DNA of 64,000 bases from Leptogorgia sarmentosa (taxonomy: Eukaryota). A model generated the notes under the pieces. The model was not told the DNA's origin, did not search any database, and saw only the letters and a program-made list of their open reading frames with translations. Made by a program: the position numbers and the translations under genes. Where the stretch lies: assembly GCA_964658305.1 (NCBI GenBank), contig OZ210885.1, forward strand, positions 18,352,001 through 18,416,000, in the 5' to 3' direction. This document shows positions 12,944 through 60,121 of this stretch, piece by piece (positions within the stretch are counted from its first letter, which is position 1; every line of letters starts with the position of its first letter).

Positions 12944-15900
12944 TTGAATAGTTTTTACAATCAGAAGATGTCCTTATTAATTGGCAATATATGTTTTGCC
13001 TGGACGGGAGATTACGAGGCCTTGAAGACATTTGTTGCTAACGACTTGAAGTTGAACGGCAATGGGAACAGCCTGGCAGGGATAAAAAAGTCTTCTACTT
13101 TAATAATAACTCAATCACCTGGAGAAGGAATGAAGGCCTTTTACAAGTCGAGGGTGATGAAGTGGGTAACGTAATACAGATACTGTGTGAAAAGATTCTA
13201 AGTGTTCATTCAAATACTAATAAGCCGACCGAATCAGACGCTTCATGCCAGACAATAACAAATACTCCATTGCAGCCTTCTTATGAGAGTACGGACATTG
13301 AATCGGAAATCGAGGGACTCAAAATTAGTCAAGCTGTTGACAGAGAAATTATTTTATCCTTGTCTGACTCTGTTGCTAAAATTGCTGAATTTATAAATAC
13401 TGACATACATAAAGAAACAGTCAGTTCTAGATCGCAAAAGAAGCTATCTAGTGGAAACAATACCACCGTTAAAAATCAGACCACAGTCCCAAACCTGAAT
13501 ATTTTGCATGATTGCCCGGCACCCTCTGAAGCAATTAACATCCTTGATGAGTCTGTGGCCATCGTTCATGATCAATCAACGCCTCCAAACTCAAATAAAG
13601 ACAGTGCAACTAATACCCTGCCTGACCGTACACCACATAATATTCTCAAGCAATCAACACCTAAACACCTAGTGCCATGCCCTTTTCTGCAAAGAAGAGG
13701 CTTTTGCTTGAAGGGTCCTTCGTGCGATTTTTCGCATACCAAGCGCCGACCTTCCAATGTGACGCAAAGACCTCTCCCAAACCCGATGGGCCAGTTTCAT
13801 CCCCCATACCCACCCCAATCAAATTTTTACCACCCTCCTTTTTCAGTGGACCCCCGCTATCTCCCTCCATATCGGCTCCCAGCACATCACCCCCTGGTTT
13901 GCTCACATCTATTTCCACTTCCCTTAATGTCTATACCAACAGGATAACCGTTAGAATAACTAATAGAAGCCATACCAATAACATAACCAAAGAATCCAGG
14001 AACTCTTATTCTTCCTTGATCTACCCACAAAAGACGAACCACATCAAGCCTAACCCATCCTACTTTGTTCCATCTGTAATCTTGTCTAATGTTATGTCCC
14101 TTGCCCCCAAAATTGACGAAATTCGATTGTATGCACAACACCAATCTGCTGACATTATGTGTTTTACTGAGACTTGGCTAAGAAATGTTGTCGATGATAG
14201 TGCAATTCATATCCGAGATTATACTATTGTTCGAAGGGACAGAGCCCACGCCCAACATGGAGGCGTATGTATGTATGTCAAAAGCACTATCCCCTTTTCA
14301 ATACTTGAAGAATACGAGAAGGACAATCATATTGAAGTGTTGTGGTGTAAATTACGCCCAAAAAGATTGCCTCAAGGATTTTCACACCTAATCGTTGGCA
14401 CAATATACCATCCACCTGCCGCAGATGACGTTCAAATTACCAACTATTTAATAGACACTCTGTCAAAAATTGAAAGCTCTATGCCTAACGCTGCCATCAC
14501 ACTGGCCGGTGACTTTGATCGCCTTAACATCACACAATTAACTAGCCAATTTCGTTTGAAGCAATTGGTCAAATTTTATACAAGAGGAGAAAGAACATTG
14601 GACCTTATTTTAACCAACCTCAAATCATTTTACCAAACCCCCAACAAACATTCTCCATTTGGGCTTTCTGACCATTGAACCATATCTGTCATCCCAAAGC
14701 AACGCAAGAAGTCAAGCAACAAAAGAAAAACTGTTATCGTCCGGGATATGCGTCCCGGTTCTAAAGAAGCCTTCGAGAGATTTTTTTTCGAGTCATACCT
14801 GGAACTTTTTAAGAGCATTGACGATAAATATAATTACTTCAACACCATGATATTAACGGGTCTAAACATTATCATGCCAAACAAATCAATCAAGCTGCAC
14901 ATCAACGACGTTCCGTGGATGACTGGCCATCTAAAAGGGTTAATAAACAGTCGCCAAAGAGCCCTAAAAGAAAATAATCAGATACAATTCAGATTTTACC
15001 GCAACCGTGTAAATAGAGAGAGGAAACTTGCCAAAAGTAAATATTATGAGGCCAAAGTTTAAGAGATTAAAGATACCGAACCAAAGAAGTGGTGGTCAGA
15101 ATGTAAACGGTTGTGTGGAATGTCCAAACCAAAGACTGACATTGTTTCGAAGTTACTCGATGAATCCCCAACAACATATGATAAAATCAATCTAGCAAAC
15201 GATATAAATTCAGCCTTTTTGGAACCTCAAGAAAATTACCCAAAACTATCCTCTACCTGCAAACTAGACACAATCAATTATCCAATCCCAAGTGTGTCAA
15301 CAGATTTAATAACCAAACAACTGAGCTCAATCAACGCATTGAAAGCTCATGGTCCTGACAACGTACCCAATTGGATTTTAAAGTATTTTTCTCATATGTT
15401 GGCTCCACCTGTTTGTTCATTAATTAACTCATCATTTCAGGAAGAACAGCTACCACACCTGTGGAAGTGTGCAAATATCATACCTCTTCCAAAAACCTCC
15501 AAAGTAAACGATATTAACTGTGATCTTAGACCTATCTCCTTAACCCCAACAATATCAAAAATAGCTGAAGGCTACGTAGTACAAAATCATGTCAAACCTG
15601 CAGTACTAAAACACATCCGTCCTGACCAATACGGCTGCATCCCCAAATCGTCGACGACCCACGCTCTTGTCAACCTCACCCACCAATGGCTGAAAGCAAC
15701 CAACGGGCACCGTCGCTAATTATGGATTATAAGAAAGCTTTTGACATGATCGACCATAACCTACTGATCTCAAAATTAAAACAACTTGAAATCAACCCCC
15801 ACATAATCAATTGGATTTGTGACTTCCTCAGTAACAGGCAACAAAGGGTGAAGCTAAATAACGACATTTTTTCCGAATGGAAGGAAATCTTAGCTGGAGT

Positions 15901-16934
15901 CCCTCAAGGAACTAAATTGGGACCATGGCTGTTTCTTATTATGATAAACAATTTAGAAATACCTGCCGCAGACGGAGTCGCCATATTTGTTGATGATACA
16001 ACCACCTTCGAAATTGTTGAGAAAGGCAAAACAAGCTCTGCTCAACTAATGGCTGACCAAGTGTCCTTATGGTCAAATAACAACAAATTCCAAATTCAGT
16101 CCAAGAAATGCAAAGACATGAGAATTTCCTTCAAAAAGCATCCGACTATATATGAGAACTTACACATCAATGGAAATACCATAGATATCGTTAAATCCGT
16201 AAAACTTTCAGGAGTCACCTTGCAGGACAACTTGAAGTGGACCAACACGTCGAAGTCATCATAAAGAAAGCATTGAAAAGACTCTACTTTCTGTCACAGT
16301 TAAAAAGAGCGAAGATACATTCAAAAGACTTAGTCAAATTCTATATTACATGTATTCGTTCTATTCTGACATATGCCTGTCAGGTCTTCCATTTCAGTCT
16401 CCCCGATTATCTATGTACAGCACTGGAACAAATCCAGAAACGAGCACTTGGAATAATCTATGGTTACGATACACCTTATAACGACGCTCTTGAAGAATCG
16501 GGTCTCCTCAAACTCGCCGACTACCGATTAAAGTTATGCGACGAATTCTTTGCAAAGGTTTTAGCTAATCCACAAGACAAACTTTTTAAGAGTTTTTTTT
16601 AAACTCTTCCCCACATCAATCAGACTGTAGTTTCATTGAGGAAAGTGAGAAAATTTGACATTGCCACGTGCAAAACGAACCGCTTTAAACAATCTTTTAT
16701 AAACTCAGCTGCTAGACGATATAATGATTTAGGCAGTAACTAAATCCTTTTGACCTTTTAGACCTTTTTAATAGATAACTTACAGTCAATTATATTATTT
16801 AAATGTATATATCTTGAATGTATTAGGCATCCTTGTAATTTAAATTCTAGCATCAACTCTAATTAATGTAAACCTTACTAATTCAGCCATTGCTGTAAAT
16901 AAGGCTTTTTAATAAACGATCTATCTATCTATCT
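12944..16934 (+). mobile_element. Near full-length decayed CR1/L2-group LINE (ORF1 with CCCH finger; ORF2 APE-RT)
   Basis: CPFLQRRGFCLKGPSCDFSH; APE motifs FTETWL, YHPP, LSDH; RT motifs RPISLTP, DYKKAFD, GVPQGT, FVDD; stops/frameshifts; AATAAA + (CTAT)n tail. Confidence 0.9.
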
Positions 16935-22211: not shown

Positions 22212-23982
22212 ATTTTGACTGTTTTCAAAAAATTACAGAAATATGAATTTCCGATTGTGTTGCCATGAAACAACCTCAGGCAGCCTTTGAAGTACTCGTG
22301 TTCCAAAAATATAGTTTGCAATGTTGCATTAATTGGTTAGTAAGGCAACTGGTTGCTGCATATATGTATTTCTAGTAGTACAACTATTTACACTTGATGA
22401 GTGCATCTCGTTTATAATATCACAGATATACAAAGACCAACACAATTACGCTCACGATTCATTCACTCACTCCAACTCTCCACAATGCGATGCTATCACC
22501 AATATACTGCTACAACACACACTCTTTTATAATACACAAACAGGAATACATATTTTCCTCCCACACATTTCCTCTACGTAAATGGAACACGTTTATGCTG
22601 ACTGTGTTCCTACTTTGTGGTTCATATCTATATTGTTTATAAGTAAATTTAATACATATATATTTTGACATAGACATTTACACATTTACATGGATAGGCC
22701 GTGGGATGAGCGGGCAAAAGATGCTTAGAAAACGAGAATTCCGTTGCACCCCTCGTGGAACTACATAATTTTCACATGAATGAATAGAGAAAAACTTACT
22801 TCATCAGAATCCGTTGCTCCCCAAACGAAACAGGTGCACAATTGGGAGAAAAATGCTCCCAAAGTTTGCTAATTCTGCGCTTTGAAATATTCGAACCGCC
22901 ATTGTTTTGGTAGCAAATACGCATGCGCATGTCTGCCAAATTTGCACTGCGCAGGTGCACAAGACAAATGGGTTTCCCCTGTGGGTTTTCCCTTATTTTT
23001 TCCACTGAGCTGTTATATTATCTTAGTACTCGCAGTGGTTTTTCCCGATTTTACAATGAAAAGAAACGAAAATTGAATTGAATTTTAAAATTTATTTTTA
23101 CTTATTAATTGGAATGGTTTTAACTCCCTATTAATGAGCTTAAAATGAGAAAGCAGTGAATTTTTGTTCTTGCATTGCGCATTAATTGAATTTGTTCAGC
23201 TGAAATAACACAGAATGCGACACTAGCGCTTGAATTCAAAGGGTAGCCTTTTTTGTGTAGACCCACTGTATATGTACAAAATCAAGGAGATTTTCAATAT
23301 TTGTTCAAATGCTTTTATGCTTCCTTGCCTCCCACATCTGGAAATACTGACTCTTGCAAAAACAGAGTTTGTTGCCCGGAAAACCAAACTTTTTCTACCA
23401 AACTCAGAAACATTTGAAAAAACACGGTTTCTCGACTTTCTCCACCTGCCAATGCTGGTAAGTCTACATGACGTGGTGCTATACTGAATCATTCATAAAG
23501 TACATAAATAGATAAGATATGACAAGTGTCTTCGCACGTGGCGCTTTTTCCCATTCGCTGGCTCCGCGACCGATTCGCGAATGGCAAATGAGCGACATGC
23601 ATTGAGTTGAACGAAGTGTGCCAGTTGCGCTTCGGTTGGAGAAATGACAAGTGCATTTGAATTGGAAATGGTTGTTTAACATAAGTCTAGTATAAAATGC
23701 ATGATCGGTTGGCAGCGCGTGTATGGATTGACTCATTCATTCATTCGTTCATTCCATATGACGTGCATACAACAAGGTGTGAGTAATCCAATATTGATTG
23801 CATGGTTATGTATTAGTGTCGAATGACCGCGATGTAGTATCGAGTTACACGTGTTCGTGAAACACGTGGCCTGCAGTGTGAAGAATACATGGAATTGTTG
23901 TCTCGTCAATATACTAGCATGCGCGACGACACTTATATTGGCAGTTTTGAGTGTTGAAATGAGAATGATAAGATGAGGATAA

Positions 23983-24146
23983 AGGGGACGAGCGCGAACG
24001 CAGGTCCCCACTACCAGAAATTATACGCTCGAGTTACCCACATTAGGGGTAATCGCAGGAGTCAACCCAGTCGAAGTGCAATGAAAGGGCCTCATCCTGG
24101 GAGGACCTCCTAGTTGATCAAGGTGCCTCTCGCGTCAGGTAAGTAT
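23983..24146 (-). ncRNA. U1: U1 snRNA
   Basis: ATACTTACCTG 5' end, GATCA loop I, CATTGCAC loop II, Sm site AATTTCTG, terminal stem; 164 nt. Confidence 0.95.
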
Positions 24147-24605
24147 GACTTCATGGCGCATACGATTACCTTTTATACGCTGCAACCGCGAGGAATGCTT
24201 GTGGAACGAATGCATGGGGATGAGTCTGTCTGTCGATAGATGGATCGATCGATCTCTCGGACTGCACCGTGTTTGCACGTTCCGACAATTCTCGACCCGC
24301 ATATTCAATACGAATTAACAAAAAAATCAAAGTATGTAAATCTCATGAACAGCGATGCTGCTTAAGCTTTGTTGGCCAACGAGCAGCTACCCAAGACTAT
24401 TATAACATGAATGTGTTAGGCTGCTTACCATAATTCGTTCGTCGTCGGTCATCGGCACTGAATAATGATGTCATTATATACGTATCTCTTGCCAAATGCC
24501 GGTTCGCGGCGAGGATCTAGCTATCTGTAAAGTCAAGAATAATTTGTTAGAATTTTTTTGAACTGATAATGAGTGAGAAATCTTCCCCCAATAATGAAAT
24601 TGGGG

Positions 24606-24758
24606 GAAGTGGGCCGTACTCGGAGGTAGTGCAATACCGAGACAACCCGTGGCCAGGGCGAAGCAAGCTTCAATCCCATGGCCGAGGTGCAAAAATCAGT
24701 TTAATATATGAGTTAGGACATTGCCTAACATATCAGATATTAAACTGATAAGAACAGA
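24606..24758 (-). pseudogene. U2: U2 snRNA 3' segment (nt 39 to end) of an interrupted gene
   Basis: TCTGTTCTTATCAGTTTAATATCTGATA, Sm site ATTTTTG, loop IV TATTGCACTA. Confidence 0.92.
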
Positions 24759-26670
24759 GTTTCTTATTTTTCAATTTTAGAGGTGATGGATTCCATCCTA
24801 ATACTGTGGGGATAAGCTGATCAGGCTTATTTATATTTTAACTAACCTAGGGCAGGAAATATATATGTAAAAAAAAACAAACCTAAGTGTGTGATACTGA
24901 ATTTGAGATCCATGCAAATTGAAATGTCAGAACAAGAGTGGGGCTCTCTCAAGTCTGAGTACCTAGTGTTCATGTGCCCGAGTGGCTTACGTGTGTGCAA
25001 GTATAAAGGGGGAATAAAAACATAAAAGTTTGAGTCCAAATGAAAAAATAATGGCATGCGTGCCTAGTGCACTGTGTAAAAGACTTAATTAAGGAGAGGA
25101 CTATGCCGAGGCATAGCCCCCGGACTTTAGAATTCTTCTTCGTCATATTCATTGTAGTCTTCATCGTAGAAGGATTCATCGTCTGGGAATTCGTCTAACA
25201 GATCAAAGGGGTGGTTGATGGAGTCTTCGTCATCTTCAAAGAGCGGGTCAAGGCCTTGGATGTAGAAGAGGTGATGTTGAAGGTCTGCGGAGGGGTCCAG
25301 TTTGAGATATTTCAGGGTGGCGGAGAACATTTGGCGGAGGAATTTGGATAGAGGGGAGTGGTAAGTTTCGACACGTTCAAAATCGTCAAGGGCGGTTAAA
25401 AAGAGTTGGCCAATGAGGTAGTCCTTGGTGGAGTTTGAGAGGTGCAGTTCTGGATCTTCAAGGGTATGCGTGGTGAAAAAGAGGGCTGTTTGTGTTTGGA
25501 GGGATTCAATCGGGAGGTTGGCCTTGGTAGATTGTTGTTGGAAAAAGGAATTGCGGTACTTGAGGATATGCGCGGGAAGTTCGTGGCAGGTAAGGAGGTG
25601 GGACGAGGCGGTGCTTTGGTCGTAGATGGGTTCGTGGCAGAGGCGGCAGTGAGGATGGTTGATGGACGGGGGGTCATAGGTCGTGGCAGCATCTTGAGCA
25701 GGAGGAGTAGAAGAGTTCTTTTTGTTTTTGTGATTTTTCTTCTTTCCGGATTGGCTGGTGGAGATGGGTGTGGAGCAAGGGTCAGGATTGGCTTGTGTGA
25801 TAGTAGAGGAAGAGGGGGGGTGAGTTAGTGTCTGTACTGTTTGGGTGGATTCCATCGTAGTGGGAAAATTCTCGGTTGTGGTGTCAGCATCCTTTACAGT
25901 TTTGGAGGGTATGGTAGGAGACTGAACGCCAACATCGGTAGTTGCTGTTTCGGACGATTGGGAGGCGGTTGAAATATACGAGGTGTTGATGGTAGAAGTG
26001 GAGGTATCCCTGGTTTGTTTGGTACTGGGTGTCTGTTCACTTGCGTCCATCGAGGCATTGAGGTGGAAAGGGATTGGCGAGGTAGGAGGTGAGCTAGGAG
26101 GTGTTGCCATCTGTGACGGTGTGGAATAGCCGGAGTCGGTGGAGTTTGAGGGAGAGGGTGGCTGAGGATCATGTGGTGGAGAGTTCCAAGAGAGAGAGAG
26201 CATTGCAGGAGGTGGTCATCTTGTTCGAGGGACCAAGAGGCAGGAGCAGAGTTAAGAGAGGAGAGAGCAGTCAGCACAGCAGCAGGAATCAGCATCGTTC
26301 GGTTTGTGGGTTGTCCGATATTCATAGTCCATTTCATTGCCAGTTTCGTCAGGTTGTTGTCGAAGGAGAGTTTCCACGACAGGGGAGGTCCGTGTGCAAG
26401 TTGCTCGATGGTTGAGCGCAGTAGAGCGGGAATGGGAGAGACGGGCGGTCCGAGAATTCCCGGTTTACACCCGCAAACCCAGTTCCGGCTACTCTCGCCG
26501 GTCATATGCCCAAAGCCTGAAGCTGGTGAGGCCTTCGGCTTGGACATACTCCCTTTGAGAGTAAGCCAACAGGAACTTTTCTTCTACTTCTTTCTTGTTA
26601 GGGCCTTCCTTCTTTTTGCGATTAGTTGGCTGCCTCTTCTTTCTTCCCCAAAGGTCTTCGGTTTTTGTAG
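24759..26670 (-). mobile_element. U2-targeted RT-less insertion with a single ORF
   Basis: Flanked by 20-bp duplication of U2 nt 39-58 (26690-26671 and 24758-24739, one mismatch); A-rich 3' end. Confidence 0.8.
25127..26547 (-). CDS. ~470-aa ORF (one frameshift in a CT/GA microsatellite near 26190): duplicated N-terminal motif, S/T/P-rich linker, C2H2 finger, acidic tail
   Basis: ORFs 25894-26547 and 25127-26203 overlap at the microsatellite; CRLC-x12-H-x4-H. Confidence 0.6.
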
Positions 26671-26707
26671 ATTAAGCTGATAAGAACAGATACTACACTT
26701 GATCTTA
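26671..26707 (-). pseudogene. U2: U2 snRNA middle segment (nt 22-58) including branch-site recognition sequence
   Basis: TAAGATCAAGTGTAGTATCTGTTCTTATCAGCTTAAT. Confidence 0.9.
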
Positions 26708-29700
26708 TTTTGAATTGTACGACGACGGGCTTCTCGACTCCGACGGTGCAATGGAGCCTGAACCCGGTGCAATCGCCACATTCAGGGGGGTCACTACAGG
26801 TGACGCGGATTGACAGAGGTCATGAACCCCTCCCCCGTGCCATGAAACAACTGTGAATGGCCTGGACGATCCGGTGCTACCCACCTTCACGCCCAGGGAT
26901 CCCTAACCTATGATGGTGAAATGGCCGGAGTATGATGTTGAGCTAGACGGATGCAACATGAGCAGCGACCCCAAGATCTAAAACATTGAAAACCTGTGCA
27001 GCCTACCCGAACGAAATTCGAGCAAACCACAGGACAAAAATTGAACATACAGGCAGCCCAATCCGTTACAGGCAGTACAACCAGTAAAGGCGACCACCCA
27101 ATCGTCATGGTGACACATTACATGCAAATAAAAATGTTATGACCACCACCACAGCTCATCTGTGAATATAACATCATCATTTTCGGGAGACACCACACCA
27201 AACAACCCTCCTGCTAACCATAATTCCAAATACCGGTCCCTGGGACAATGTCTGCGCTGCATACGTAGCGTAAAACGCAACGTGGATTTGGTGGAAGAAA
27301 GTAGATCCGCATGTTCTACTGGGATCTGATCGAATCGCCATCCGTTGCGTGCTACCCATATTCTATGTTTGATGATACCCAAGAGGCAAGGAAAAAGTGG
27401 TGGAAGTTTCTCCGCCTGTTTGTACCTGGTTAAAATCTGCGCTGGAGTGGGGGCAGTGACACGAAGCCTCACACGATGTACCAGCGAGGAGTACCAGCTA
27501 ACAAGCTGCCGTGCCACGGAACATTCCACAAAAAGATGAATGAGGGATTCTGCTTGCCCCCAGTGGCACTCAGGATCCACTGACATTCCAAATCGCATCA
27601 AGCGGTCTGCAGTCGGCAAGATGCCATGGGCTATCAACCAAGCCGTGTCACGCACTGGTCTGATGAACCGCCAAAGATGGAGGTTCATCCACACCGTACG
27701 CCATTCAATGTCTAGGCCCCAAGACCGGTACCTCTGCACACACTTGTGCTCTTCTTGGTCAAGTTTAGAGAGAACCCGGTAAACAAATTTGGCAGACAAT
27801 TCAGTCAAAGGACTGACTTGTGTACCAATTCCTTTTATTACGATAACCCCATCCGCCCTTTCGCTATGGAGTCGGAACCAGGCCTTCATTATTGATTTGT
27901 AAAAAGGAGGAAGAAGATCTATTGCGTATGGAGGAGGCGACGGCAGCATAAGTATGTCTTCTATACTTCGCCCGCTGAACGCTATACGGAGATGGTATCT
28001 AAAAAAGAACATCCCTGGAGCATCGGGGTTTTCAACCAACCTACGTACCCAAACTGCATGCAGTGAGGCGACCTTCCTTTGTATGTCAACTATCCCTAGA
28101 CCCCCTTGTCCAAAGCGTTGCGTTGCTGAGGTCCGAGCCAGCCATTCTCGGCGCTTCCCCCAGACAAAGGGGAACACTACCTTTTCCATAGCAGTCGCCA
28201 CCTGTCCAGGCAAAGCCAGGAAAGACAGGAGGTACCAAAATCTACTATACCCGAGCATGTTGGCTACAAGGGCACGCCTGTGGAAGGAAAGCTGCCTAGA
28301 CTGCCAAGAGGCAATCACTTTGGTGAGCTCCCCCACTTTGGAATCCCAATCCTCCTCTTCCGACTGGTTGGAAAGTGTGGAACCCATAATTTTTATGTTG
28401 GCAGACGACCAATCTAGGTGTACAGGTAAGTCGGTACGTCTGACCCATGTGCCTATAAGCAACCCATGTGACTTTGTCACATTCAATTTTGCTCCGGATG
28501 CCTTTTCGTATCGCCCAAAAACTGAAAAGACAGCTTTCGTCTGCGTACTGACAAATTTTTGCCCGACGTGTACGGGCCATAAACATTGCACAGTTGGAAG
28601 TCAAGGGTCCCACTTGCAAACCGGGCAGAAACCATCCTCCCCTGTGTGTCTCTACTACACGACGACAGTTCAAATTTTGTTCTATAAAGAATTGCCACCC
28701 CACAACTTCTATTAGAACCAGGAGACGAAATACAATTATACTTCTGGCGGAGAATACCATTATCCTTTGCGGATTTTAGCCATGATGACATCTCTTCCTC
28801 CGAAACTGCATGCATCTCTTGGAGGCACAAAAAATCTGCTTTGCAGCAATTTAACCAAGAAAATAACGTGTCCCGATTGTCTACGGAACGTAAACTCTGA
28901 CAATTTAAAGAAATTATTTCAACGCTTTCCATTGAAAAATCAAGCAACGGAATCCCTCCTCAACAAAAGTTTACGAGAACGAGTTGTGCGGCCAGAGCCA
29001 AAGACTGGTCGCGGCCGTGTCTTTTTTGAGGAGAACAAATCGAAATCAGCGGAAGAAGTCGGAGAGCCTTGTTTTACGGAAGGCAACTTCACCTGAGTGC
29101 GTTGGGTCAAAGGGAATTCCATAGAATCAGTAGCCTGGGACGTTTGCATATGTTTTCCATCATTGTCGGGATCCTGGGGGGTTTCTAAGGTCGTTTCCAT
29201 CTGGTCGTCATTGGTGTCAAGCTTGCTTTACTCTTCATTTTCATCGTCTGGGGGTAAAGGGAGTAATTCAGCGGGAGTTTTAAATAGGTCTTGGGAAGGG
29301 TCGAGCCTGGTGGACTTAACACTGCCTGCCACTTCCCCCCTGTCTTCCTGCTCTTCTGAGCTGTCCGAGCTGTCCGAACTGTCAGAACTGTCGGTGCTAC
29401 TCACTTCACACCGGGGTCTTTTGTTAGAAGAGGTGGACGCTTTTGATGGTGCCTTTCCATCAACATTATCCTCTCTCTCTGGAGGCTTGTCTTGTTTATT
29501 TGCCAAGGTGGCAGCCTTTACTACCTGCTGCTCTATTACTGTAATCTCACCTTCAACTGGCTCATTAATCGGTTGCTCTCTAACCTCTGTAGCCGTACCT
29601 GTCACATCAGAAGCCGTCACAGTACCTGCAGTTGGGGTGATACTTTCATCAGTATTAGGGCCCTGTAGCCCTTGCTGAACCGCTTCAGCGAATGAAGTCG

Positions 29701-30918
29701 GAATTGGACGAGGAGGAGGTACAGCCTCTCTTCGTTCAGGTTGCTGTTCACTTGCCTTTCCAGCGTTTTCAGTAGAGGTGGTTGTCTGACCTCGAGTGCC
29801 CTGTGGGCATTGCGCCCTCGTATGACCCGTTTTATGACACCTAAAGCAAGTGGGAATTTGCCCCGGGTAGAAGATGTTGCACCAATGATCTGCCACCCGA
29901 ATGGATGACGGAATTGGCGTTTTAATCTCAATTAATGCATGCCTGATACCTATATGCACACCTTTGTATGTGTCTGCCTTTTATATTAATTATTTTGCCA
30001 TATGGCTTAAGGGCCTCTTCAATGGCTTCATTCTGTATTCCATAGCTAAGTCGGGTGATTGTCACCCACTTGGCAGATCGGCATGGATTAAACTTGACCG
30101 GGGTGTTGTGGAAAGAGAGACCTAAATGGGATACTTCCTCTAGGGCTCGTTCGGTTCGGCATGTTACTCTCACCTTCCTAGGCGACAGTAGCACGAAGGC
30201 TTCAAACAAAGCCTCAAAATTACTTGGGACTTGGTCCCGGAAAGAATCAACTATGGCCTTGATGTTGACTTTGGCCTGGCCTTCTCCTAAGGGCAGATCT
30301 ACATCTGCCGTACGATTGGTGAATGGTATTCGCATTCACAACAACATTGTTCCACGAAGACCTAAAGCTTCGAGAGAACGTAATTAGAAAAACCTAGTAA
30401 TAATAAATCCAAAACGAGGACCAACAGCCTCGAAACAAAAAATACTATACCTAATCGAGGACCAGATGCCTCGAAAGAAAAAAACCCTAAACGAGGACCA
30501 ACAGCCTCAAAACAAAAACAAAAATTAATTCCTAAACGAGGACCAAATGCCTGGAAACAAAAACAAAAAATTAATTCCTAACAGAGGACAAAATGCCTCT
30601 CAATCAAAAATGAAATGTGGAGAAAAATAACGGAGGGTGTCCAACCCCCGTGGACAGATACAGAGAAAGGAAACAGAGAGTGACAGGCTTCAGTCAAGCA
30701 CTTCCACCTGACCAGATGCAACAACGCAAGGTGGAAACAAGTCCGCCGCCTTAGAGTTACCCCCTAGAGGGCTCCTCAAACAGGCACAACTACACGAAAC
30801 CAACGACTGAACACGACTGGACCAGCAGGGAGCGATCTTCTTCACCAGGCTTGATCTTCGTTCTTCTTGTCTTCTTCTTCTTCTTTTAGCTTGATCTTCT
30901 TCACCAACAGCCAGAATG
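26708..30918 (-). mobile_element. Tx1-clade LINE inserted in U2 (internally deleted)
   Basis: ORF1 with CFRCHKTGHTRAQC knuckle; ORF2 APE start (SLNC..LCLQE), QYAD remnant, YEKASGAKLN, GGLG, zf-RVT ESLIHLF.EC; 5-bp duplication TAAGA. Confidence 0.9.
30395..30610. repeat. Degenerate tandem repeats (about 5 units) in Tx1 5' UTR
   Basis: Recurrent cctaaacgaggaccaa..gcctcgaaacaaaaa. Confidence 0.7.
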
Positions 30919-30944
30919 TCTTAGCCAAAAGGCAGAGAAGCGAT
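30919..30944 (-). pseudogene. U2: U2 snRNA 5' segment (nt 1-26)
   Basis: ATCGCTTCTCTGCCTTTTGGCTAAGA. Confidence 0.9.
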
Positions 30945-31643
30945 GCCTTCTTCGCCGTTCCACGCCATCTTTTAAGCGAGAAAAGCAAGGTGAAAAATGC
31001 GGTCCTCCTTCGCGCCGCAATCAGCAGCCGCGAAATCGCAAGCGAAACGAGCCGCAAACGTTGTGGCACGCGGTGATGATGACGCGTACAATCAATCGTT
31101 TGTGCGCTGCTAATTAATTCGGCTGCACACGCGAAACTTCTCGCGACGCACGCGTGTTCTCCACGAATTTCTGGCAATTTTTTGGCAGGCGCACGTGGCG
31201 CTTTTTCCCATTCGCTGGCTCTGCGACCGATTCGCGAATGGCAAATGAGCGACATGCATTGAGTTGAACGAAGCGTGTCCGGTTGCGCTTCGGTTGGAGA
31301 AATGACGAGTGCATTTGAATTGGAAATGGTTGTTTAACATAAGTCTAGTATAAAATGCATGATCGGTTGGCAGCGCGTGTATCGATTGACTCATTCATTC
31401 ATTCCATGTGACGTGCATACAACAAGGTGTGAGTAATCCAATTCCAATATTGATTGCATGGTTGTGTATTAGTTTCGAATGACCGCGATTTAGTATCGAG
31501 TTACACATGTTCGTGAAACACGCGGCCTGCAGTGTGAAGAGCACATAGAATTGTTGTCCCTTCAATAAACTAGGATGCCGACGCGACGACATTTGTAATA
31601 TCAGTTTTGAGTATTGGAAATGAGAATAATAAGATGAGGATAA

Positions 31644-31807
31644 AGGGGACGAGCGCGAACGCAGGTCCCCACTACCAGAAATTATACGCTCGAGTTACCC
31701 ACATTAGGGGTAATCGCAGGAGTCAACCCAGTCGAAGTGCAATGAAAGAGCCTCATCCTGAGAGGACCTCCTAGTTGATCAAGGTGCCTCTCGCGTCAGG
31801 TAAGTAT
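31644..31807 (-). ncRNA. U1: U1 snRNA, second copy (upstream region rearranged)
   Basis: Near-identical to 23983-24146; flanking spacer 31190-31643 matches 23535-23982. Confidence 0.92.
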
Positions 31808-32060
31808 GACTTCATGGCGCATACAATCGTATGCGCCATGAAGTCATACTTACCTGACGCGAGAGGCACCTTGATTCCTCGCGGTTGCAGCGTATACCCT
31901 AACCCTAACCCTTGCACCTTGATTCCAAGCATTCCTCGCGGTTGCAGCGTATAAAAGGTAATCACCTTTTATACGCTGCAACCGCGAGGAATGCTTGTGG
32001 AACGAATGCATGGGGATGAGTCTGTCTGTCGATAGATGGATCGATCGATCTCTCGGACTG

Positions 32061-32155
32061 CAAGCTTCAATCCCATGGCCGAGGTCGAAAAATCAGTTTA
32101 ATATACGAGTTAGGACATTGCCTAACATATCAGATATTAAGCTGATAAGAACAGA
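32061..32155 (-). pseudogene. U2: U2 snRNA fragment (nt 39 to ~133), second copy; 3' part deleted
   Basis: Matches 24664-24758; joined to spacer by a deletion. Confidence 0.85.
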
Positions 32156-32259
32156 AATTTTTTATTAACAATAAAGAAGAATTTTACATTGGTATAAGAT
32201 ATGTGGTAGTAAGTAACAAGATTATGAGAGAATATAGGAATATATAGCTATTTAACTGG
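32156..32259 (-). mobile_element. 3' end of a third U2-inserted retroelement (Keno/Utopia site)
   Basis: AATAAAAAATT abuts TCTGTTCTT at U2 nt 39; sequence unrelated to 24759 onward. Confidence 0.55.
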
Positions 32260-32629
32260 TTAGGGAGCAGTCATTATTAATGCCGGGGGGGTGGGGCGGA
32301 AGATATTTCTCAACATGTGATAAATTTTTGTTAGCCCCTCCTCTTTTCCTAATAATTTTTCAGGGCCCCCCTTAAGGATATAACTTATTTTCATGACCCC
32401 CCCCCCGCCCATAATACCTTTGAATACATTAGAGCAATAAAACCTTTTCATGTGGCAGTAAATACCAGTCCTGCCAAATTAAAGTGATCAATAATGTTCA
32501 TCCTTCTTTACTCTGAGCTGTAAAAAGAAGTTAAAAACTTTAATACAGGTGTGAAATACAATGCAATATAGTACGGTAGAACACACATACTGTAGGCTAT
32601 ACTATTTTCTCCACAAGAATCGTAATATA

Positions 32630-35600
32630 ATATTCATTTTTACCAATGTATTTTGAAAGCTTCCAGTTTCCAGCCAATCTACCACTTCTTGTTGACACAA
32701 ACAAGTTTTCGACATCGTCATTGTCGTCGTCACTATCTTCTATTTCACCATCTGCAACATCTGCGGTGCATGTGATGACCTGCAGCATAATATTAAATAC
32801 AAATTGTTGAATAAGATTAACAATCAACAAATTTAGGATAATTTAGGAAAGATATATTAAATTTGAAATAAACTGAATATCTTTTATGAAGTACCTCATC
32901 CATTTCATCGTCAGAATCAGAATTGTCACTAGTGTCCTCAAAACTGTCGGCAACATTTTCTATATTAGAACTGGCGTTTTGAAATGTTTGCAGGTTTACA
33001 TGATTTACGATTGCTTGAATTTTTTCTTTCTTCTTGAGCTTGAAGCAGCCCGTCATATTCTGCCTGATTAAGTACTTATCTAGTGTGCTGACTAGTAGTG
33101 TGTTTATAGCTTTGCTGTTAACAATCTCCAACCAGTTGATATCATCATTGCTTTGTTTTTGTTCTGCATCTCTTCTATTTCTTTTCTCTCTCTTTCTGGT
33201 TTCTCTTGTTGCTTCTTTATAATGCAACAACCTTGTTGGAACAGTTTCTTCAACTGTATCCTTGGGTTAAAATCATTCACTTCCCTTTTGCTGCCATCAA
33301 TATCTCTAGGTGTATCTTTAACATGTAGGTATTTAAACTGGTCCGATGCGTAATCAGGCATTGGCTCTGGTACTGGAAGACAAGCAACGTCAACCCATCC
33401 CATCTCTTGACAATGTGAACAGGCGGGGCCAATACTTGTGCAACCAAACTTTACAAACTCAAGGTACTTCTCACCTATGGTGACATGTTTTTCGGAGAAG
33501 TCCTCCAGTTTTGAATAGTAGTTATAGCAACTACTTCATTGTTCTTTCTTTCAACATAATCCAGCAGATAACGTTTATCCCAGTAGAACAGCTCATGAGC
33601 ATCTTTGCTCGCAAAACTTTTCATATACCCATCAGGAGCAACACCACAATCTATTCGCTCAGCAACTTCATCAGCCACTTTAAAAGCATTGAACTTCATT
33701 CTTTCAAGTTCTAACTCCCCCAGTTGGGAAGTTGTTATATTTGAAACATCCAAATTTGCCAAATTATCGGACTTTGTCTTGTGTTCCCACGTCAATGATC
33801 CACCATCACATACAGCATCACCTATATAAAGCAATTTTGGAAAACTTGTAAGGCAAACAGATGAAATAGGTGTCCTGTGCTAGGCTTATTTATGCTATAT
33901 GTTATAATATTGATTACTTAACCCAAAGTGCTTCACCAAGATGTATATTTACAACAACAACAACAACATAACAACATAACCTCGTTCGTAATATTTTGCA
34001 GTTTAATTCTTCAATGTGGAAGACTTCAATTGCACACAACATAAAGCAGTACAATGCATTGCTGCAATCCAAATCATGCAATACAATACAATTGTAAGTG
34101 ACATACCGACATAACTCTGGATCCTTTCCACTTCATTATGGCTACTGTCTCCAGGTGCAAGATGATGCCGTACATAGTAGTCATAATTCATTATTCTAAT
34201 CTCCTCCAATGAGCGCATCTTAACTTCATGATTAGTTATTCCCACGCCAGGTCCTGCGTCTGTGAAGTCAACAATTCTGGATTTATGTTTTGGCAGCCCA
34301 ACTTCACCAAGAAGATCTTTGCAATCACACAACTTGCCTTTCACGTCTTTCACACACGGGTCGTTGTCCTGTAAAGTATGCTTGTAGTACAATATACTAG
34401 CATGAAGTGCCTGTAGCTTTAATACCATCCGCCTTAGATATGCTTGCTCCATCTGGCAACAGTCATTTAACATTTCATCTATGCTTGACATGTGGGATTT
34501 AATTCTGGCTTCAAATATGTTGATTTTACTTTCCTCATAGTCTTGGAACTTTGGTCCATTTTTCACAAGTAAAGTGTCGTCTTCATCAAACTGATATGTA
34601 AAGTACCGTACTTCGTCACGTAGTGCGGTCATGATTGATCGAAATCGTTTGCTCTGTCATTCCAAAGGACGTTCTGCTTCATGCAACGCTGGTTCTCTGT
34701 GCTTAATTTCTGTCAAGTGGCTGGCCCATACAGTTCCTGAACTCCCAACGAAGTACTTAGGCTTTGTCACTACAACTGTTTGCTGGTTGTGTGTACTGAT
34801 GCACTCTTTGTTATTGACTAGTTCAATTCTTTTGTTCATGTAAAGGAACGTCCCTGGTGTGCAATTGGCCATGCTTTCTGGAAAGTCGTATTTCGGTAGC
34901 TTTTTTGCAAGTGCAGGATCAGTGGGCTGGTAAAGTTTTTGTGATCTTGCACTTCTCATACCCGTACTGGACATAAGTAGGCTTTGTCATCATAACTTCT
35001 GTATAGTGTAAAGTTTGGGTCCAATGGAGCTGCATTCATTGATCGTATTATATTTTTCTTTTGTGCTCTACAGTAGTGGGTAAGTAAACCAGAATTATCC
35101 TCAGCCTAGGGAGGTTTCTTGCAGCAAAAAAAATTTAAGTGCTTCTTTGCTTGGAATGACCGTTTGTTCTTGGGGTGTGATCTATTGTATGCCGTTGTCG
35201 ATGATTTAATAAGTGGGAGCGCCCTTTTCTTACGATTTACATTGACAATCTTCAGAAAGTCCTTTTTCTTTACGCGGTGGTTTAGATATACCACTGAGTC
35301 TTGCCTTCTCCCGTGTGCTGTTCCTTTGTCTGTGATACAGTCCAAGAGCATCCTTTCATCTTCTCCATCCATCCCTACTTTGCGACCACTACCCAATCGG
35401 CGTAACTTCAATCTTCTGTCCCTAATTAAGTTTTTTCAGCACCTAGACAACATCGATTTCTTTCTGGGTGTTTCCTCTTCCACTTTAAGCGACTTAAGAG
35501 ATTCAAGTGCAGTCTTTAATTCTTGTATATCTTCGGTTACTTCTTTAACTTGCATATCTGACCAAATATTCTGTTTTGATCTTAACAAAATCTCCTTTTC

Positions 35601-36365
35601 AATTACTTCCTCTTTCTTATGTATTCGCTGTTTGAGTTCTTCATCCACTATCGATTCAGATTCTTTTTCTATTTGCACAAGTTCACGAATGTAATCAAAG
35701 ACACTTTGCTCGTCATGGCAAATGGAGTCACTGTCAATTCCAAGAGAATCGAGTTCTGATCTTGAGCGATTTGCTCCAAGAACTACTCTCAAAACCTTTC
35801 GATCCCACTCTGTATCGAGTGCCTTGTATAAGTTTTGAAAGTTTTCTTTATTAAGTTCAAATCGATTGGTTTGTATGTCATCATCTTTATGAATTAACTC
35901 AAGAAAAAACTCTTCCAAATCCAGATCGTCGGGTCTGAGTACTATCCACTGGTTACTTTTGAATGAGATCACGTAAACACAAAGACCAAACTCTGGGTGA
36001 AGAAGAAGCTCCTTAAACCGTTTCCTCTGATCACGAGTTTTAATATTTACACCACCATGAGGAAGAGAGCTGTAACTCTTGTACAAATTAAATGCCTCTT
36101 CAAAATCAATATAACTAACAATGCGTGTGGAACCATCAGCGTAATTTGCTTTGGCTAAGAGACAATCTAAAATGGCACGCAAACCTCGCAGAGGCTCAGC
36201 AAATGACGAGTCCGGAGATATCTTCTTAATCTTGCTTTCAAGAACGGGTAGATTTTCACTCAATTTACACGATTGGAGAGATTTGAGAACAACTTCATTT
36301 TCCTTCGAGAGACATCTTATTGATGATCGCACACTGTTAGAAGACTGTCTGGGAAGTGCCGCCAT
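32630..36365 (-). pseudogene. Zator-like transposase, frameshifted and probably spliced
   Basis: Chain of ORFs 36365-35436, 35411-35106, 34974-34657, 34632-34003, 33834-33475, 33403-33104, 33230-32817. Confidence 0.7.
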
Positions 36366-36445
36366 CTTTTTAATTTTCGCGCGAAAATCCGGTGTAGAGG
36401 TAGTACTTCACCTAAGATAAATACAGTTGATTGAACGTAATCAAA

Positions 36446-37898
36446 ATGGCTGACATGGACAACATTGTCATGGATGACCACCCACACACAAAAGGTGTTT
36501 GTTTAAATGAAGTCTATTTATTTTTGAAAGAGAAGGGGTTTGAACAATATTGGTCTAGCTTTGATAGCAATGGGTATGACAACATTCAACAACTAACTGA
36601 AATGTCACCTGACGAACTAGAGGAAGTACTTGACGATGTCAAAATGACAAAGAAGGGTCATCGAAAGAGGCTAAAAGCTCTATTGGCGATTCGATCTGTG
36701 CCAGGAAGCAAAGAGAGTGAAAAAGCAACCACATCGCAAAAGGCACACATTGCAAGTGCGAAATCAAAATGTATGTAATTCCAAAACTTTTGAAAAAAAA
36801 TGATTATTTCAAATTATACAATTTACACTATTTAATATTTGACATTGGCAGCTACTTTCCTTTATATTATTAAAAAAAATTGAAAATATTGTTTTCCCTA
36901 TTTCAGTGCCAAACTATATAGCACAGAGATTACTGATTCCAGATCCTGAAATGGCAAAACACCTGTTTTTCAATGAAGTTCTCTATGAGTTGTTTGAGGC
37001 ATCCTATGACATCATGAATCCAGAATCATTTGTTCGGTATGTGATTGATCAACGCCCATTTCGTTGGAAAATTGAGTGTAAGTTGGAAAAGATAAAACTC
37101 TTTGAAACTCAGCTTGTTAGCTCCAATGATGGGAACTGGCTTAATGTCAGAAAATACTCTGAAAATAAAACAACTCTAACTGCTAAACACCTGGTTCCAG
37201 CAGAGAGCACATTAAAATTCCTTGAAGAAAAAATAGAAGGCATACATGTTTTTGTTGAGGAGTGTATACAATTGAAGAGCAAACTTTATAATAAAGAAAA
37301 TTCTGTTCTTCCATGGAAGGCAAATGAGTTGTTATTTTTGGAAAGAGTAGCTACAGAGGCCAGAACACTGGAAATAAAACTGGCAAAAATCAAGGGTGAT
37401 GTGCAAGAGCAATTTGATTTTTTGAAAACAAGAGTACCTGGAGGAATTGCTACTAAATGTGAGAACAGCCGCTCTGCAAGAAGGAAAAAGGAAAACAAAA
37501 GAAAGTTTCGAAAGAGAAAGAATAAAAGAGCATTGTCAAGCAGTGTCAAGGTAATGGATGCTATCCTGTCTGACACAGAAAGAAAAAATGTAATTGTCAA
37601 GCAGGTGGAAAATGCTGACTTCAGCTTTACCATAAAGGAAGAAGATGTCAACATGGATGGTCTCTCATTACTCTGACAAAAATTTCACAAACCTGGTCTG
37701 ACATTGTTGGTGGCAAAACATGTTTTCTCAAATGATGCACTTAAATTGGTTCAAAAAGTGCTGGATGATTTTCAGGAAAACATTAATGGAAAGAGAAATC
37801 AAGTGAGGAAAAAGAGAAAGGTTACAACTGGATCAATAATGTTGCTTCATACTGCTCTGGCAAATACTGTGAAATCTAATGAACAAAACTCTTTGTGA
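36446..37898 (+). pseudogene. Second gene of the element: SAM-domain protein, 2 exons, one in-frame stop
   Basis: VYLFLKEKGFEQYWSSFDSNGYDNIQQL..KKGHRKRL; intron 36771-36906 keeps frame; TGA at 37674. Confidence 0.65.
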
Positions 37899-38137: not shown

Positions 38138-41100
38138 TTATTTGACCCTCATGCCAGATATGTTAATGGTAAAAACAAAAAGTACTGTTTCAGTGCAGAC
38201 AACTAAATGTGGTGAAGACTGCATATACCAGAAAAAAAGATGCTCAGAGGAAACCGAACATGATAAGCAAGTAAGACGTTGATTCAGAAAAATCCATGTA
38301 AGTATGCCTTTATTTCTCTCAGCTAATCTACATCAAGGTGATGAACGTTTTAGTGTTCAATCTACTTGGGGAGAAAATGTACTTACAAGCTTTGAATACT
38401 GGTTTAATTGTCTTAGACTCAAGTGTCGAGTTTATATCTGTAGATAACTTACCAGAGTTTGTAAGTGTTTTTCATTGCAGAAGCACATTTTCTTATGAAA
38501 TCGAATCTCGATGCTGATAGCAGAAAATAGTAATAACAATCTACCTATTGTGGTAGAGTCCATTGAGGTACAAAATAAAACTCAACTACCCATTGTGGTA
38601 GAGCCCATTGAGGCACAAAATAAAACTCAACTACCCATTGTGGTAGAGCCCATTGAGGCACAAAATAAAACTCAACTACCCATTGTGGTAGAGCCCATTG
38701 AGGCAAGAAGCATTTATGAACTCTCTATTCCAGGAGCTATACAGGCCCAAAGCAATGACACTAATAATGAAAACCTAATTTTGTTTAGAAATTATAAAAA
38801 AGAACTTCAAGGCCTTGTCAAACCACCTGACAGAGAAATTGAGTTTCACTATTATGATATTCATACTGCACTTTTCAATACATTTCTGAATGATAGTTAT
38901 GCTATTTTAGTATTTAATGGCTATATGATGGCCCTGATAAAACAAGAAAATTTTTTCTATTTATTTGACCCTCATGCCAGAGATGTTAATGGTAATAACA
39001 AAAAGTACTGTTTCAGTGCAGACAACTAAATGTGATGAAGACCGCATATACCAGAAAAAAAGATGCTCAGAGAAAACCGAACATGATAAGCAAGTAAGAC
39101 GTTGATTCAGAAAAATCCATGTAAGTATGCCTTTATTTCTCTCAGCTAATCTACATCAAGGTGATGAACGTTTTAGTGTTCGATCTAGAGCCAAGCAATG
39201 TGCTTTCATGAGTTTATCGGCCGTTCTAACAGCCCAAAATATTCCATTGTTCAACTGGTCAAGAACAACATTTAATAACATCTTATTACAGGGGAGAAAA
39301 TGTACTTACAAGCTTTGAATACTGGTTTAATTGTCTTAGACTCAAGTGTCGAGTTTATATCTGTAGATAACTTACCAGAGTTTGTAAGTGTTTTTCATTG
39401 CAGGAGCACATTTTCTGATGAAATCGAATCTCGATGCTGATAGCAGAAAAAAGTAATAACAATCTACCTATTGTGGTAGAGTCCATTGAGGCACAAAATA
39501 AAACTCAACTACCCATTGTGGTAAAGCCCATTGAGGCACAAAATAAAACTTAACTACCCATTGTGGTAGAGCCCATTGAGGCAAGAAGTATTTATGAACT
39601 CTCTATTCCAGGAGCTATACAGGCCCAAAGCAATGACACTAATAATGAAAACCTAATTTTGTTTAGAAATTATAAAAAAGAACTTCAAGGCCTTGTCAAA
39701 CCACCTGACAGAGAAATTGAGTTTCATTATTATGATATTCATACTGCACTTTTCAATACATTTCTGAATGATAGTTATGCCATTTTAGTATTTAATGGCT
39801 ATATGATGGCCCTGATAAAACAAGAAAATTTCTTCTATTTATTTGACCCTCATGCCAGAGATGTTAATGGCAAAAACAAAAAGTACTGTTTCAGTGCAGA
39901 CAACTCAATGTGGTGAAGACCGCATATACCAGAAGAAAAGATGCTCAGAGGAAACCGAACATGATAAGCAAGTAAGACGTTGATTCAGAAAAATCCATGT
40001 AAGTATGCCTTTATTTCTCTCAGCTAATCTACATCAAGGTGATGAACGTTTTAGTGTTCGATCTAGAGCCAAGCAATGTGCTTTCATGAGTTTATCGGCC
40101 GTTCTAACAGCCCAAAATATTCCATTGTTCAACTGGTCAAGAACAACATTTAATAACATCTTATTACAGGGGAGAAAATGTACTTACAAGCTTTGAATAC
40201 TGGTTTAATTGTCTTAGAGTCAAGTGTCGAGTTTATATCTGTACATAACTTACCAGAGTTTGTAAGTGTTTTTCATTGCAGGAGCACATTTTCTGATGAA
40301 ATCGAATCTCGATGCTGATAGCAGAAAAAAGTAATAACAATCTACCTATTGTGGTAGAGTCCATTGAGGCACAAAATAAAACTCAACTACCCATTGTGGT
40401 AAAGCCCATTGAGGCACAAAATAAAACTCAACTACCCATTGTGGTAGAGCCCATTGAGGCAAGAAGTATTTATGAACTCTCTATTCCAGGAGCTATACAG
40501 GCCCAAAGCAATGACACTAATAATGAAAACCTAATTTTGTTTAGAAATTACAAAAAAGAACTTCAAGGCCTTGTCAAACCACCTGACAGAGAAATTGAGT
40601 TTCATTATTATGATATTCATACTGCACTTTTCAATACATTTCTGAATGATAGTTATGCCATTTTAGTATTTAATGGCTATATGATGGCCCTGATAAAACA
40701 AGAAAATTTCTTCTATTTATTTGACCCTCATGCCAGAGATGTTAATGGCAATAACAAAAAGTACTGTTTCAGTGCAGACAACTAAATGTGGTGAAGACCG
40801 CATATACCAGAAGAAAAGATGCTCAGAGGAAACCGAACATGATAAGCAAGTAAGACGTTGATTCAGAAAAATCCATGTAAGTATGCCTTTATTTCTCTCA
40901 GCTAATCTACATCAAGGTGATGAACGTTTTAGTGTTCGATCTAGAGCCAAGCAATGTGCTTTCATGAGTTTATCGGCCGTTCTAACAGCCCAAAATATTC
41001 CATTGTTCAACTGGTCAAGAACAACATTTAATAACATCTTATTACAGGGGAGAAAATGTACTTACAAGCTTTGAATACTGGTTTAATTGTCTTAGAGTCA

Positions 41101-59900: not shown

Positions 59901-60121
59901 AGATCAACTATGACACAGTAATTGAAGCATTTGCTTCGAGGTGTGCACGAAAAGCAAGAATATGAATTTCGTCCGTATACAAGTAAAGCCGAATTACCTT
60001 ATTGTTCAGTTAAATATATGCAGATTTTTGTGTTGTTTTAGTGTGTTTTTTCGGGGGAGGGGCTGAGGGGGCCCCAAGGAAAATTTTGCCCCGGGCCCCA
60101 AAAGTTGTCTGGGCGGGCCTG
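56921..60121 (+). mobile_element. Full-length hAT transposon
   Basis: CAGGGCCGCCCAGA...TCTGGGCGGGCCTG TIRs; perfect 8-bp TSD CCAACATC. Confidence 0.95.
57295..59965 (+). pseudogene. ZMYM1-like hAT transposase (TTF finger, DUF4371, hATC dimerisation); frameshift ~57385 and stop at 57899
   Basis: RDWLVWS..FCFACCLF, IIVDGTPD, RGQGYDN, CSAHTLNL, ASGERSFSKL. Confidence 0.85.

What the first reader, a model, noticed from the sequence alone, without database searches (positions are those of the whole stretch)
24759..26670. RT-less, single-ORF element inserted site-specifically in U2 snRNA
Seen: 1,912 bp bounded by a 20-bp duplication of U2 nt 39-58, with no TIRs, no LTRs and no RT/endonuclease motif. 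It carries one ~470-aa ORF (frameshifted in a GA microsatellite) with a twice-repeated P.(A)LL...L...P.SW.L..D...L...W module, a disordered S/T/P tract, a basic KKKNHKNKK patch, a C2H2 finger and an acidic tail. Established: this is the site used by Keno (Tx1) and Utopia (NeSL-type) retrotransposons, and ORF1-only derivatives (HAL1) are known for L1. Inference: a non-autonomous, U2-specific, protein-coding parasite mobilised in trans, with a protein unlike the CCHC ORF1 of the neighbouring Tx1.
Basis: partly seen in the sequence, partly recalled or inferred. Interest (0 to 1): 0.85.

Follow-up and report, generated by a model that had tools for sequence, protein, structure and literature searches.

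The report
Gene-carrying parasite of U2 genes
A 1.9-kb insert sits in a U2 splicing-RNA gene at the exact spot used by known site-specific jumping genes, and although it has no copying enzyme of its own it carries a conserved protein of no recognised family, so it is likely a freeloading retroelement that would borrow another element's enzyme to move.

Summary
Confirmed. A 1,912-bp insert splits a U2 gene at nt 39 with a 20-bp duplication (19/20), the Keno/Utopia site. Its one ORF is frameshifted here. The same shift is in three sequencing runs from two studies, so it is not an assembly error. Intact relatives exist (464-701 aa, 34-68% identical; one named, from the octocoral Paramuricea clavata). 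None found is fused to reverse transcriptase. One relative occurs as five 92-99.6% identical copies on different contigs, and several lie on ~2-kb contigs that fit a unit of this size. In one run a diverged sister 3' end bridges the same U2 junction. The protein has a duplicated helix-hairpin domain, a conserved DSGxxS degron-like motif, a basic patch, a C2HC (not C2H2) finger on a helical domain and an acidic tail. Pfam, PDB and fold searches gave no match. Best reading: a protein-coding, non-autonomous non-LTR element moved in trans by a U2-cutting LINE. It works like HAL1/HeT-A, but descent from an ORF1 is not shown. The partner was not found, and relatives' insertion sites could not be read. 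The scan held no look-alike on other DNA.

The parts
24759..26670 (-). The element, 1,912 bp
   Evidence: sequence; junctions
24604..24758 (-). U2 snRNA gene, nt 39 to 3' end (3' flank)
   Evidence: Rfam RF00004, 114.1 bits
24739..24758 (-). 3' copy of the 20-bp target-site duplication (U2 nt 39-58)
26671..26690 (-). 5' copy of the duplication; one mismatch to the 3' copy, identical to the U2 copy at 32136-32155
26671..26707 (-). U2 nt 22-58, between the Tx1 and the element
26548..26670 (-). A/G-rich 5' UTR, 123 nt
26504..26549 (-). Predicted RNA hairpin holding both candidate start codons
   Evidence: z -4.14, 0 of 200 shuffles as good; pairing test
26190..26547 (-). ORF, 5' part: N-terminal domain with two helix-strand-strand repeats (about 26436-26190)
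26190..26200 (+). GA run in which the reading frame changes
   Evidence: same letters in runs X1, X4, X5
25127..26190 (-). ORF, 3' part: disordered S/T/P tract, basic patch, C2HC finger plus helical domain, acidic tail, stop
26120..26137 (-). DSGxx[ST] motif (beta-TrCP-degron-like), present in 8 of 8 sequences tested
25715..25744 (-). Lysine-rich patch, likely nuclear-localisation or nucleic-acid-binding
   Evidence: 8 of 8; function inferred
25586..25648 (-). C-x2-C-x12-H-x3-C zinc finger
   Evidence: 8 of 8; invariant in 8 of 8 rows with residues
25241..25693 (-). C-terminal folded domain (finger plus helices)
   Evidence: model pLDDT mostly 80-95, pTM 0.66
25096..25121 (-). 11-bp hairpin just after the stop codon
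   Evidence: z -3.30
24759..25126 (-). 3' UTR, 368 nt, A-rich end without a poly(A) tail, no ORF2 remnant detected
26708..30918 (-). Separate decayed Tx1-clade LINE in the same U2 gene (RRM+CCHC ORF1, APE, zf-RVT; no RT domain found in its ORF2 pieces), 5-bp duplication of U2 nt 22-26
   Evidence: Pfam
30919..30944 (-). U2 nt 1-26, with its upstream region in place
   Evidence: sequence; upstream compared with U1

Best explanation
This is one frameshifted copy of a roughly 2-kb insert at U2 nt 39 that encodes a single conserved protein and no reverse transcriptase, and it likely belongs to a non-autonomous non-LTR retroelement family that would be copied into U2 genes by the enzyme of a U2-cutting LINE. 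Shown: the site, the duplication, the absence of RT, the intact multicopy relatives and one further junction at the same site. Inferred steps: (1) RNA is made by read-through from the U2 promoter. (2) A partner LINE nicks at U2 nt 38/39, primes on the element's 3' end and cuts the other strand 20 nt on, giving the duplication. I put Utopia type at about 55% (20-bp duplication as in reptile Utopia, no poly(A)) and Keno at 45% (known from cnidarians). (3) The protein is kept by selection because it helps its own RNA move. It is most likely a short-lived nuclear accessory factor (basic patch, degron-like motif, zinc finger, acidic tail) that binds or escorts the RNA, rather than an enzyme. Step 3 is the weakest.
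For: Site and 20-bp duplication match the 3' flank shared by Keno and Utopia and the 20-bp TSD of reptile Utopia (PMC4640811). Relatives end at the same acidic tail (8 of 9 rows; P0016 is cut short). All hits are 108-701 aa: 2 of 381 candidates, 4 of 251, 9 in 1.84 billion representatives, 0 of 7,977 candidates of 1,228-3,505 aa. One cluster has 5 near-full copies, 92.4-99.6% identical, on contigs of five different lengths. Folded parts are better conserved than the linker (P0005 vs P0004: 74/106, 92/137, 70/157). Contig length minus CDS is 547, 575, 584 and 674 nt for four short-contig relatives, against 491 nt of non-coding DNA here. X4 record 11 (24714-24965; 15 other letters, 14 gap letters) bridges the U2 junction with 45 bases of U2. 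Element ends are deeper than the interior (X1: about 230-390 vs 46; X4: 11-23 vs 4-7), and two listed variants at the ORF start are both synonymous.
Against: Only one full copy was read, and it is frameshifted. No partner or shared tail was found: the element matches nothing else in the window and no genome is held. The DNA around every relative is unread (searches found no locus). Several relatives lie on 9-10 kb or much longer contigs, which could hold an ORF2 or non-U2 sites. The X4 junction may be an old duplicate of an array unit rather than a new insertion. No RNA evidence was obtained.
Confidence: 0.66

Rival explanations
1. The protein is the unusual ORF1 of an undescribed full-length two-ORF U2-targeting LINE (a Keno lineage), and this copy is a deletion product or a HAL1-style half element that lost ORF2.
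For: Protein searches cannot see an ORF2 in a separate frame. ORF1 proteins vary widely (PMC3905857). Keno is known from cnidarians (PMC4494074). Relatives on 9-10 kb contigs (P0004, P0015, P0026) leave room for an ORF2. ORF1-only derivatives are known for L1, Jockey and CR1 (PMC5786205).
Against: No RRM, CCHC knuckle or esterase hit in Pfam for 17 members. No likeness to the neighbouring Tx1 ORF1. No ORF2 remnant in the 368-nt 3' UTR. Four relatives 26-68% identical to the window protein by domain sit on contigs that fit ORF plus about 550-670 nt, which a one-off deletion would not predict.
Confidence: 0.22
2. A retrocopy of a lineage-specific cellular gene, dropped into U2 once by a Keno/Utopia enzyme; the relatives are host genes.
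For: Degron-like motif, basic patch, zinc finger and acidic tail look like a cellular regulator. Conservation at protein level fits a host gene too.
Against: No poly(A) tail. Sister 3' ends in the same runs, one at the same junction. Near-identical copies on many contigs, two sharing a 9-residue deletion. Many decayed fragments on separate large contigs.
Confidence: 0.08
3. A DNA transposon of Dada type, or a non-autonomous derivative of one, targeting U2.
For: Dada elements target snRNA genes, lack terminal inverted repeats and have deletion derivatives (PMC3706591).
Against: Dada makes 6-7 bp duplications and encodes a DDE transposase in 4.7-11 kb. Here the duplication is 20 bp at the retrotransposon site, and no DDE family or fold was found.
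Confidence: 0.04

Closest known systems
HAL1, HeT-A and Ag-Sponge (ORF1-bearing non-autonomous LINEs; PMC5786205, PMC5753468)
   Same: One protein, no RT, dependence on an autonomous LINE.
   Different: Those proteins correspond to ORF1p of L1, Jockey or CR1 partners. This protein matches no known ORF1 domain, and the insert sits at a precise snRNA site.
Utopia (NeSL clade, RLE; PMC4640811)
   Same: 3' flank starts at U2 nt 39; 20-bp duplication as in reptile families; low copy among U2 genes.
   Different: Utopia encodes zinc fingers, RT and RLE in one ORF; this has neither RT nor nuclease. Cnidarians are not in that paper's host table; Utopia-like proteins are reported from sponges (PMC13188248).
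Keno (Tx1 clade, APE; PMC4494074, PMC4640811)
   Same: Same 3' flank; known from hydra.
   Different: No APE or RT here. I could not find Keno's TSD length in the passages read.
SINEU (crocodilians; PMC4494074)
   Same: Non-autonomous, tied to U2 sequence, moved by a Tx1-clade LINE.
   Different: SINEU are short, non-coding, U1/U2-headed, poly(A)-tailed and target a Mariner; this is 1.9 kb, coding, and inserts into U2.
Dada (PMC3706591)
   Same: snRNA-gene target, no terminal inverted repeats.
   Different: DDE transposase, 6-7 bp TSD, U1/U6/tRNA targets.

Membership tests
ORF1-bearing non-autonomous LINE (HAL1/HeT-A/Ag-Sponge kind) | One protein, no RT | tested here: met
ORF1-bearing non-autonomous LINE (HAL1/HeT-A/Ag-Sponge kind) | Protein homologous to ORF1p of an autonomous LINE | tested here: inconclusive
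   no Pfam ORF1 domain, no match to the neighbouring Tx1 ORF1, no fold match; the true partner's ORF1 was not available
ORF1-bearing non-autonomous LINE (HAL1/HeT-A/Ag-Sponge kind) | 3' tail shared with an autonomous partner | tested here: inconclusive
   no match within the 64-kb window; no genome or Repbase to search
ORF1-bearing non-autonomous LINE (HAL1/HeT-A/Ag-Sponge kind) | Several copies of the same unit with target-site duplications | tested here: inconclusive
   one full copy with TSD, one further 3' junction, multicopy proteins of unread context
Utopia | 3' flank begins at U2 nt 39 | tested here: met
   PMC4640811
Utopia | Single ORF with RT and restriction-like endonuclease | tested here: not met
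   ORF ends at the acidic tail; no RT in element or relatives
Keno (Tx1 clade) | 3' flank begins at U2 nt 39 | tested here: met
Keno (Tx1 clade) | ORF2 with APE and RT | tested here: not met
   none in the 1,912 bp
Keno (Tx1 clade) | ORF1 and 3' UTR homologous to described Keno families | not testable with these tools
   no Repbase or Dfam library on hand
Dada | 6-7 bp TSD | tested here: not met
   20-bp duplication vs PMC3706591
Dada | DDE transposase | tested here: inconclusive
   no Pfam or fold match; the N-terminal domain was barely tested by fold search
SINEU | Short non-coding element with U1/U2-derived head and poly(A) tail | tested here: not met
   1.4-kb conserved ORF, no poly(A), no Rfam match inside the element

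The most novel reading that the evidence does not exclude
A satellite retroelement that parasitises the single-ORF Utopia enzyme and carries a gene of its own, not a leftover ORF1: an orphan two-domain nuclear protein with a conserved beta-TrCP-type degron that acts on the host or the helper, the way viral accessory proteins do. It would be a protein-coding hyperparasite that has lived in anthozoan U2 arrays long enough to diverge to 34% identity, competing with its helper for one 20-bp site.
Probability: 0.3. Interest if true: 0.88.

Novelty: new variant of a known kind. Interest (0 to 1): 0.68.

Why it matters
The protein-coding non-autonomous LINEs named in the passages I read (HAL1, HeT-A, Ag-Sponge) keep their helper's ORF1. 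Here an RT-less element keeps a protein of no recognised family and uses the precise U2 site of Keno and Utopia. If the ~2-kb unit is confirmed, it shows that a site-specific LINE enzyme carries a natural 1.4-kb coding cargo in trans, with short ends that would define the signals needed. That bears on using such enzymes for targeted gene insertion. It also supplies two protein domains without a matched fold. One U2 gene here holds two different insertions, and two further 3' ends use the nt-39 site, which makes the U1-U2 array a small test system for how elements share one target.

Full report
Observation. The window holds the edge of a U1-U2 tandem array on the minus strand: U1 at 31807-31644 and 24146-23983, U2 3' parts at 24758-24604 and from 32155. 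One U2 gene is split in three: nt 1-26 at 30944-30919, nt 22-58 at 26707-26671, and nt 39 to the end from 24758. Between the first two pieces lies a decayed Tx1-clade LINE (RRM and CCHC ORF1 at weak E-values, APE, zf-RVT) with a 5-bp duplication. Between the last two lies the element, 26670-24759, 1,912 bp, bounded by U2 nt 39-58 with one mismatch. The duplication does not extend on either side, and 0 of 3000 random 20-mers had a comparable copy. There are no terminal inverted repeats and no RT or APE motif, no Rfam family inside, and no similarity to the rest of the window beyond chance-level words of 13-18 bases. Two weak tblastn hits among 146 outside ORFs (E 0.004-0.006) fall on the opposite strand.

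The ORF. It runs 26547-25127 and changes frame in the GA run at 26190-26200. The shift is real. I laid 4 of the 14 listed runs. X1 has a contig over 25110-26500 with no difference, X4 one over 26081-26314 with none, and X5 one over 25998-26310 with one substitution and no gap. X6 has one over 26060-26265 with 2 gap letters whose place is not shown. X1 may be the source sample; X4-X6 are from a second study. A JGI protein differing at 3 of 307 residues starts at the first Met after the shift. So this copy is most likely dead as a gene.

The family. Searches with the two ORF parts found 2 proteins among 381 candidates and 4 among 251. A profile of the C domain found 9 among 1.84 billion representatives. 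With cluster members, 26 proteins are held. The only named one is a hypothetical protein of Paramuricea clavata (CAB4031995.1), so an anthozoan host is likely but not shown. The longest is 701 aa, and 0 of 7,977 candidates of 1,228-3,505 aa scored (the tool calls this weak evidence). Full-length members share the start region and end in the same acidic tail. Identity between P0005 and P0004 is 74/106 in the N domain, 92/137 in the C domain and 70/157 in the linker; the most distant full-length member is 34% identical. Open frames across that distance imply purifying selection (inference; no DNA for dN/dS). The P0007 cluster has 6 members, 5 near full length and 92.4-99.6% identical, on contigs of five different lengths; two share a 9-residue deletion. 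Whether they come from one assembly is not known. For 6 of the 26, chosen as long proteins on short contigs, contig length minus CDS is 547, 575, 584, 674, 773 (frameshifted) and 867 (partial) nt, against 491 nt of UTR here. This is what a ~2-kb unit between collapsed repeats would give. Others lie on contigs of about 1 kb to 2.9 Mb, including three of 9-10 kb. No locus could be fetched.

Other copies at the site. In one search, X4 record 11 covers 24714-24965 with 15 other letters and 14 gap letters and 45 bases on the U2 side: a diverged sister 3' end at the same junction. X4 holds three versions of the 3' UTR at 24840. Both ends of the element are deeper than the ORF interior (X1 about 230-390 vs 46; X4 11-23 vs 4-7), while the array spacer is near 500 in X4-X6. 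Depth is no copy number, but the pattern fits a rare element with sister subfamilies or shorter derivatives. Against a uniform picture, two X1 variants continue past the 5' region in other sequence. Only 32 of 222 records and 24 of 69 loose ends were shown. Two unrelated 3' ends also abut U2 nt 39, one in the window at 32156 and one in X6, so the site is in use by several families.

Anatomy of the protein. The model of P0005 (19 sequences) gives an N domain helix-strand-strand-helix-strand-strand (residues 43-123, pLDDT about 50-79), a disordered linker, and a confident C domain. The C domain was also modelled from the window residues (pTM 0.66). In 8 sequences tested (the window's 3' part and 7 relatives; 8 of the 27 held that carry this part or relatives of it, the rest being near-duplicates or fragments) all 8 have DSGxx[ST], a lysine patch and a C-x2-C-x12-H-x3-C finger; only 1 fits C2H2. 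DSGXXS is the phosphodegron bound by beta-TrCP (PMC13761293, passages). Its conservation inside a poorly conserved linker (D, S, G and last S in 7 of 7 rows) suggests function but is untested. No family or fold was matched; this does not show a new fold. At RNA level, a hairpin holds both candidate start codons (z -4.14). The three substitutions of P0005 in the first 15 residues can all keep 15 of 15 pairs, which 4 of 2000 random substitutions achieve; for P0007 the test is uninformative (321 of 2000). The test was made after seeing the pattern, and the codons are unknown. A second hairpin follows the stop (z -3.30).

How it likely works. Lacking RT and nuclease, the element needs a helper. 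The 3' junction is the one shared by Keno and Utopia, and reptile Utopia makes 20-bp duplications (PMC4640811, parts 1-3 of 5 read; its figures and supplements, which show the junctions, were not seen). I infer target-primed reverse transcription by such an enzyme on the element's 3' end. Transcription would come from the U2 promoter: the split gene keeps its upstream region, with a short A-rich word at the same distance as in U1. The 5' copy of the duplication matches another U2 copy in the window rather than the 3' copy. That fits a U2 head carried on the RNA, but mutation or gene conversion explain it equally. An earlier scan note (e1-9594015) voiced the promoter idea for a SINE; I did not test it. 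The protein is most likely an accessory factor selected for helping its own RNA; this is the least certain step.

Comparison with what is known. It works like the ORF1-bearing non-autonomous LINEs HAL1, HeT-A and Ag-Sponge (PMC5786205 and PMC5753468, passages). Membership is not established, because homology to a helper's ORF1p and a shared tail were both inconclusive. It is not a Keno or Utopia (no RT or nuclease), a Dada (PMC3706591, passages) or a SINEU (PMC4494074, passages and part 3 of 5). ORF1p classes are described in PMC3905857 (passages) and sponge Utopia-like proteins in PMC13188248 (passages); PMC4275248 (passages) was irrelevant. Nine full-text searches listed no title or abstract start describing a coding RT-less U2 element. 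Repbase, Dfam and subscription journals, including the original Keno paper, were not searchable, so it may be deposited there. The scan's own notes held no look-alike by sequence or place.

Verdict. A real, unusual element; new variant of a known kind; interest 0.68. The most novel reading left open is a coding hyperparasite of Utopia with a gene not derived from ORF1 (probability 0.3, interest 0.88).

Noticed in passing
window 26708-30918: Tx1-clade LINE inserted at U2 nt 22-26 with a 5-bp duplication, not at the Keno site; possibly a second, undescribed U2 target. ORF1 is frameshifted, no RT domain was found in its ORF2 pieces, and its 5' UTR has 36-45 bp tandem repeats.
   Followed up: partly
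window 32156-32262: A different A/T-rich 3' end joined to U2 nt 39 in a second, truncated U2 copy; candidate tail of an autonomous Keno or Utopia. Run X6 shows yet another 3' end at the same site.
   Followed up: partly
window 31825-32062: Scrambled junction: an inverted copy of the U1 5' part, a telomere-like hexamer run near 31900 and rearranged spacer.
   Followed up: no
window 23533-32155: U1 and U2 genes alternate in one tandem array; spacer depth near 500 vs 4-7 for the element's ORF in three runs suggests a large array.
   Followed up: partly
window 38138-44850: Tandem array of about 878-bp units, each with a 45-bp subrepeat, followed by an RT-bearing ORF at 44834-45880.
   Followed up: no
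window 51600-52697; 57902-59965; 61735-63057; 13042-16602: Penelope-like RT plus GIY-YIG; hAT transposase; LTR-type integrase zinc-binding domain; another LINE with a weak CCCH hit, APE and RT.
   Followed up: no
window 10646-11596 and 11754-12705: 955-bp inverted repeat, 96% identical, next to a 19-bp minisatellite.
   Followed up: no
window 32800-37700: Fragmented long ORFs on both strands (the three scanned had no Pfam hit), one short ORF resembling a SAM domain by eye; probably decayed DNA-transposon genes.
   Followed up: no
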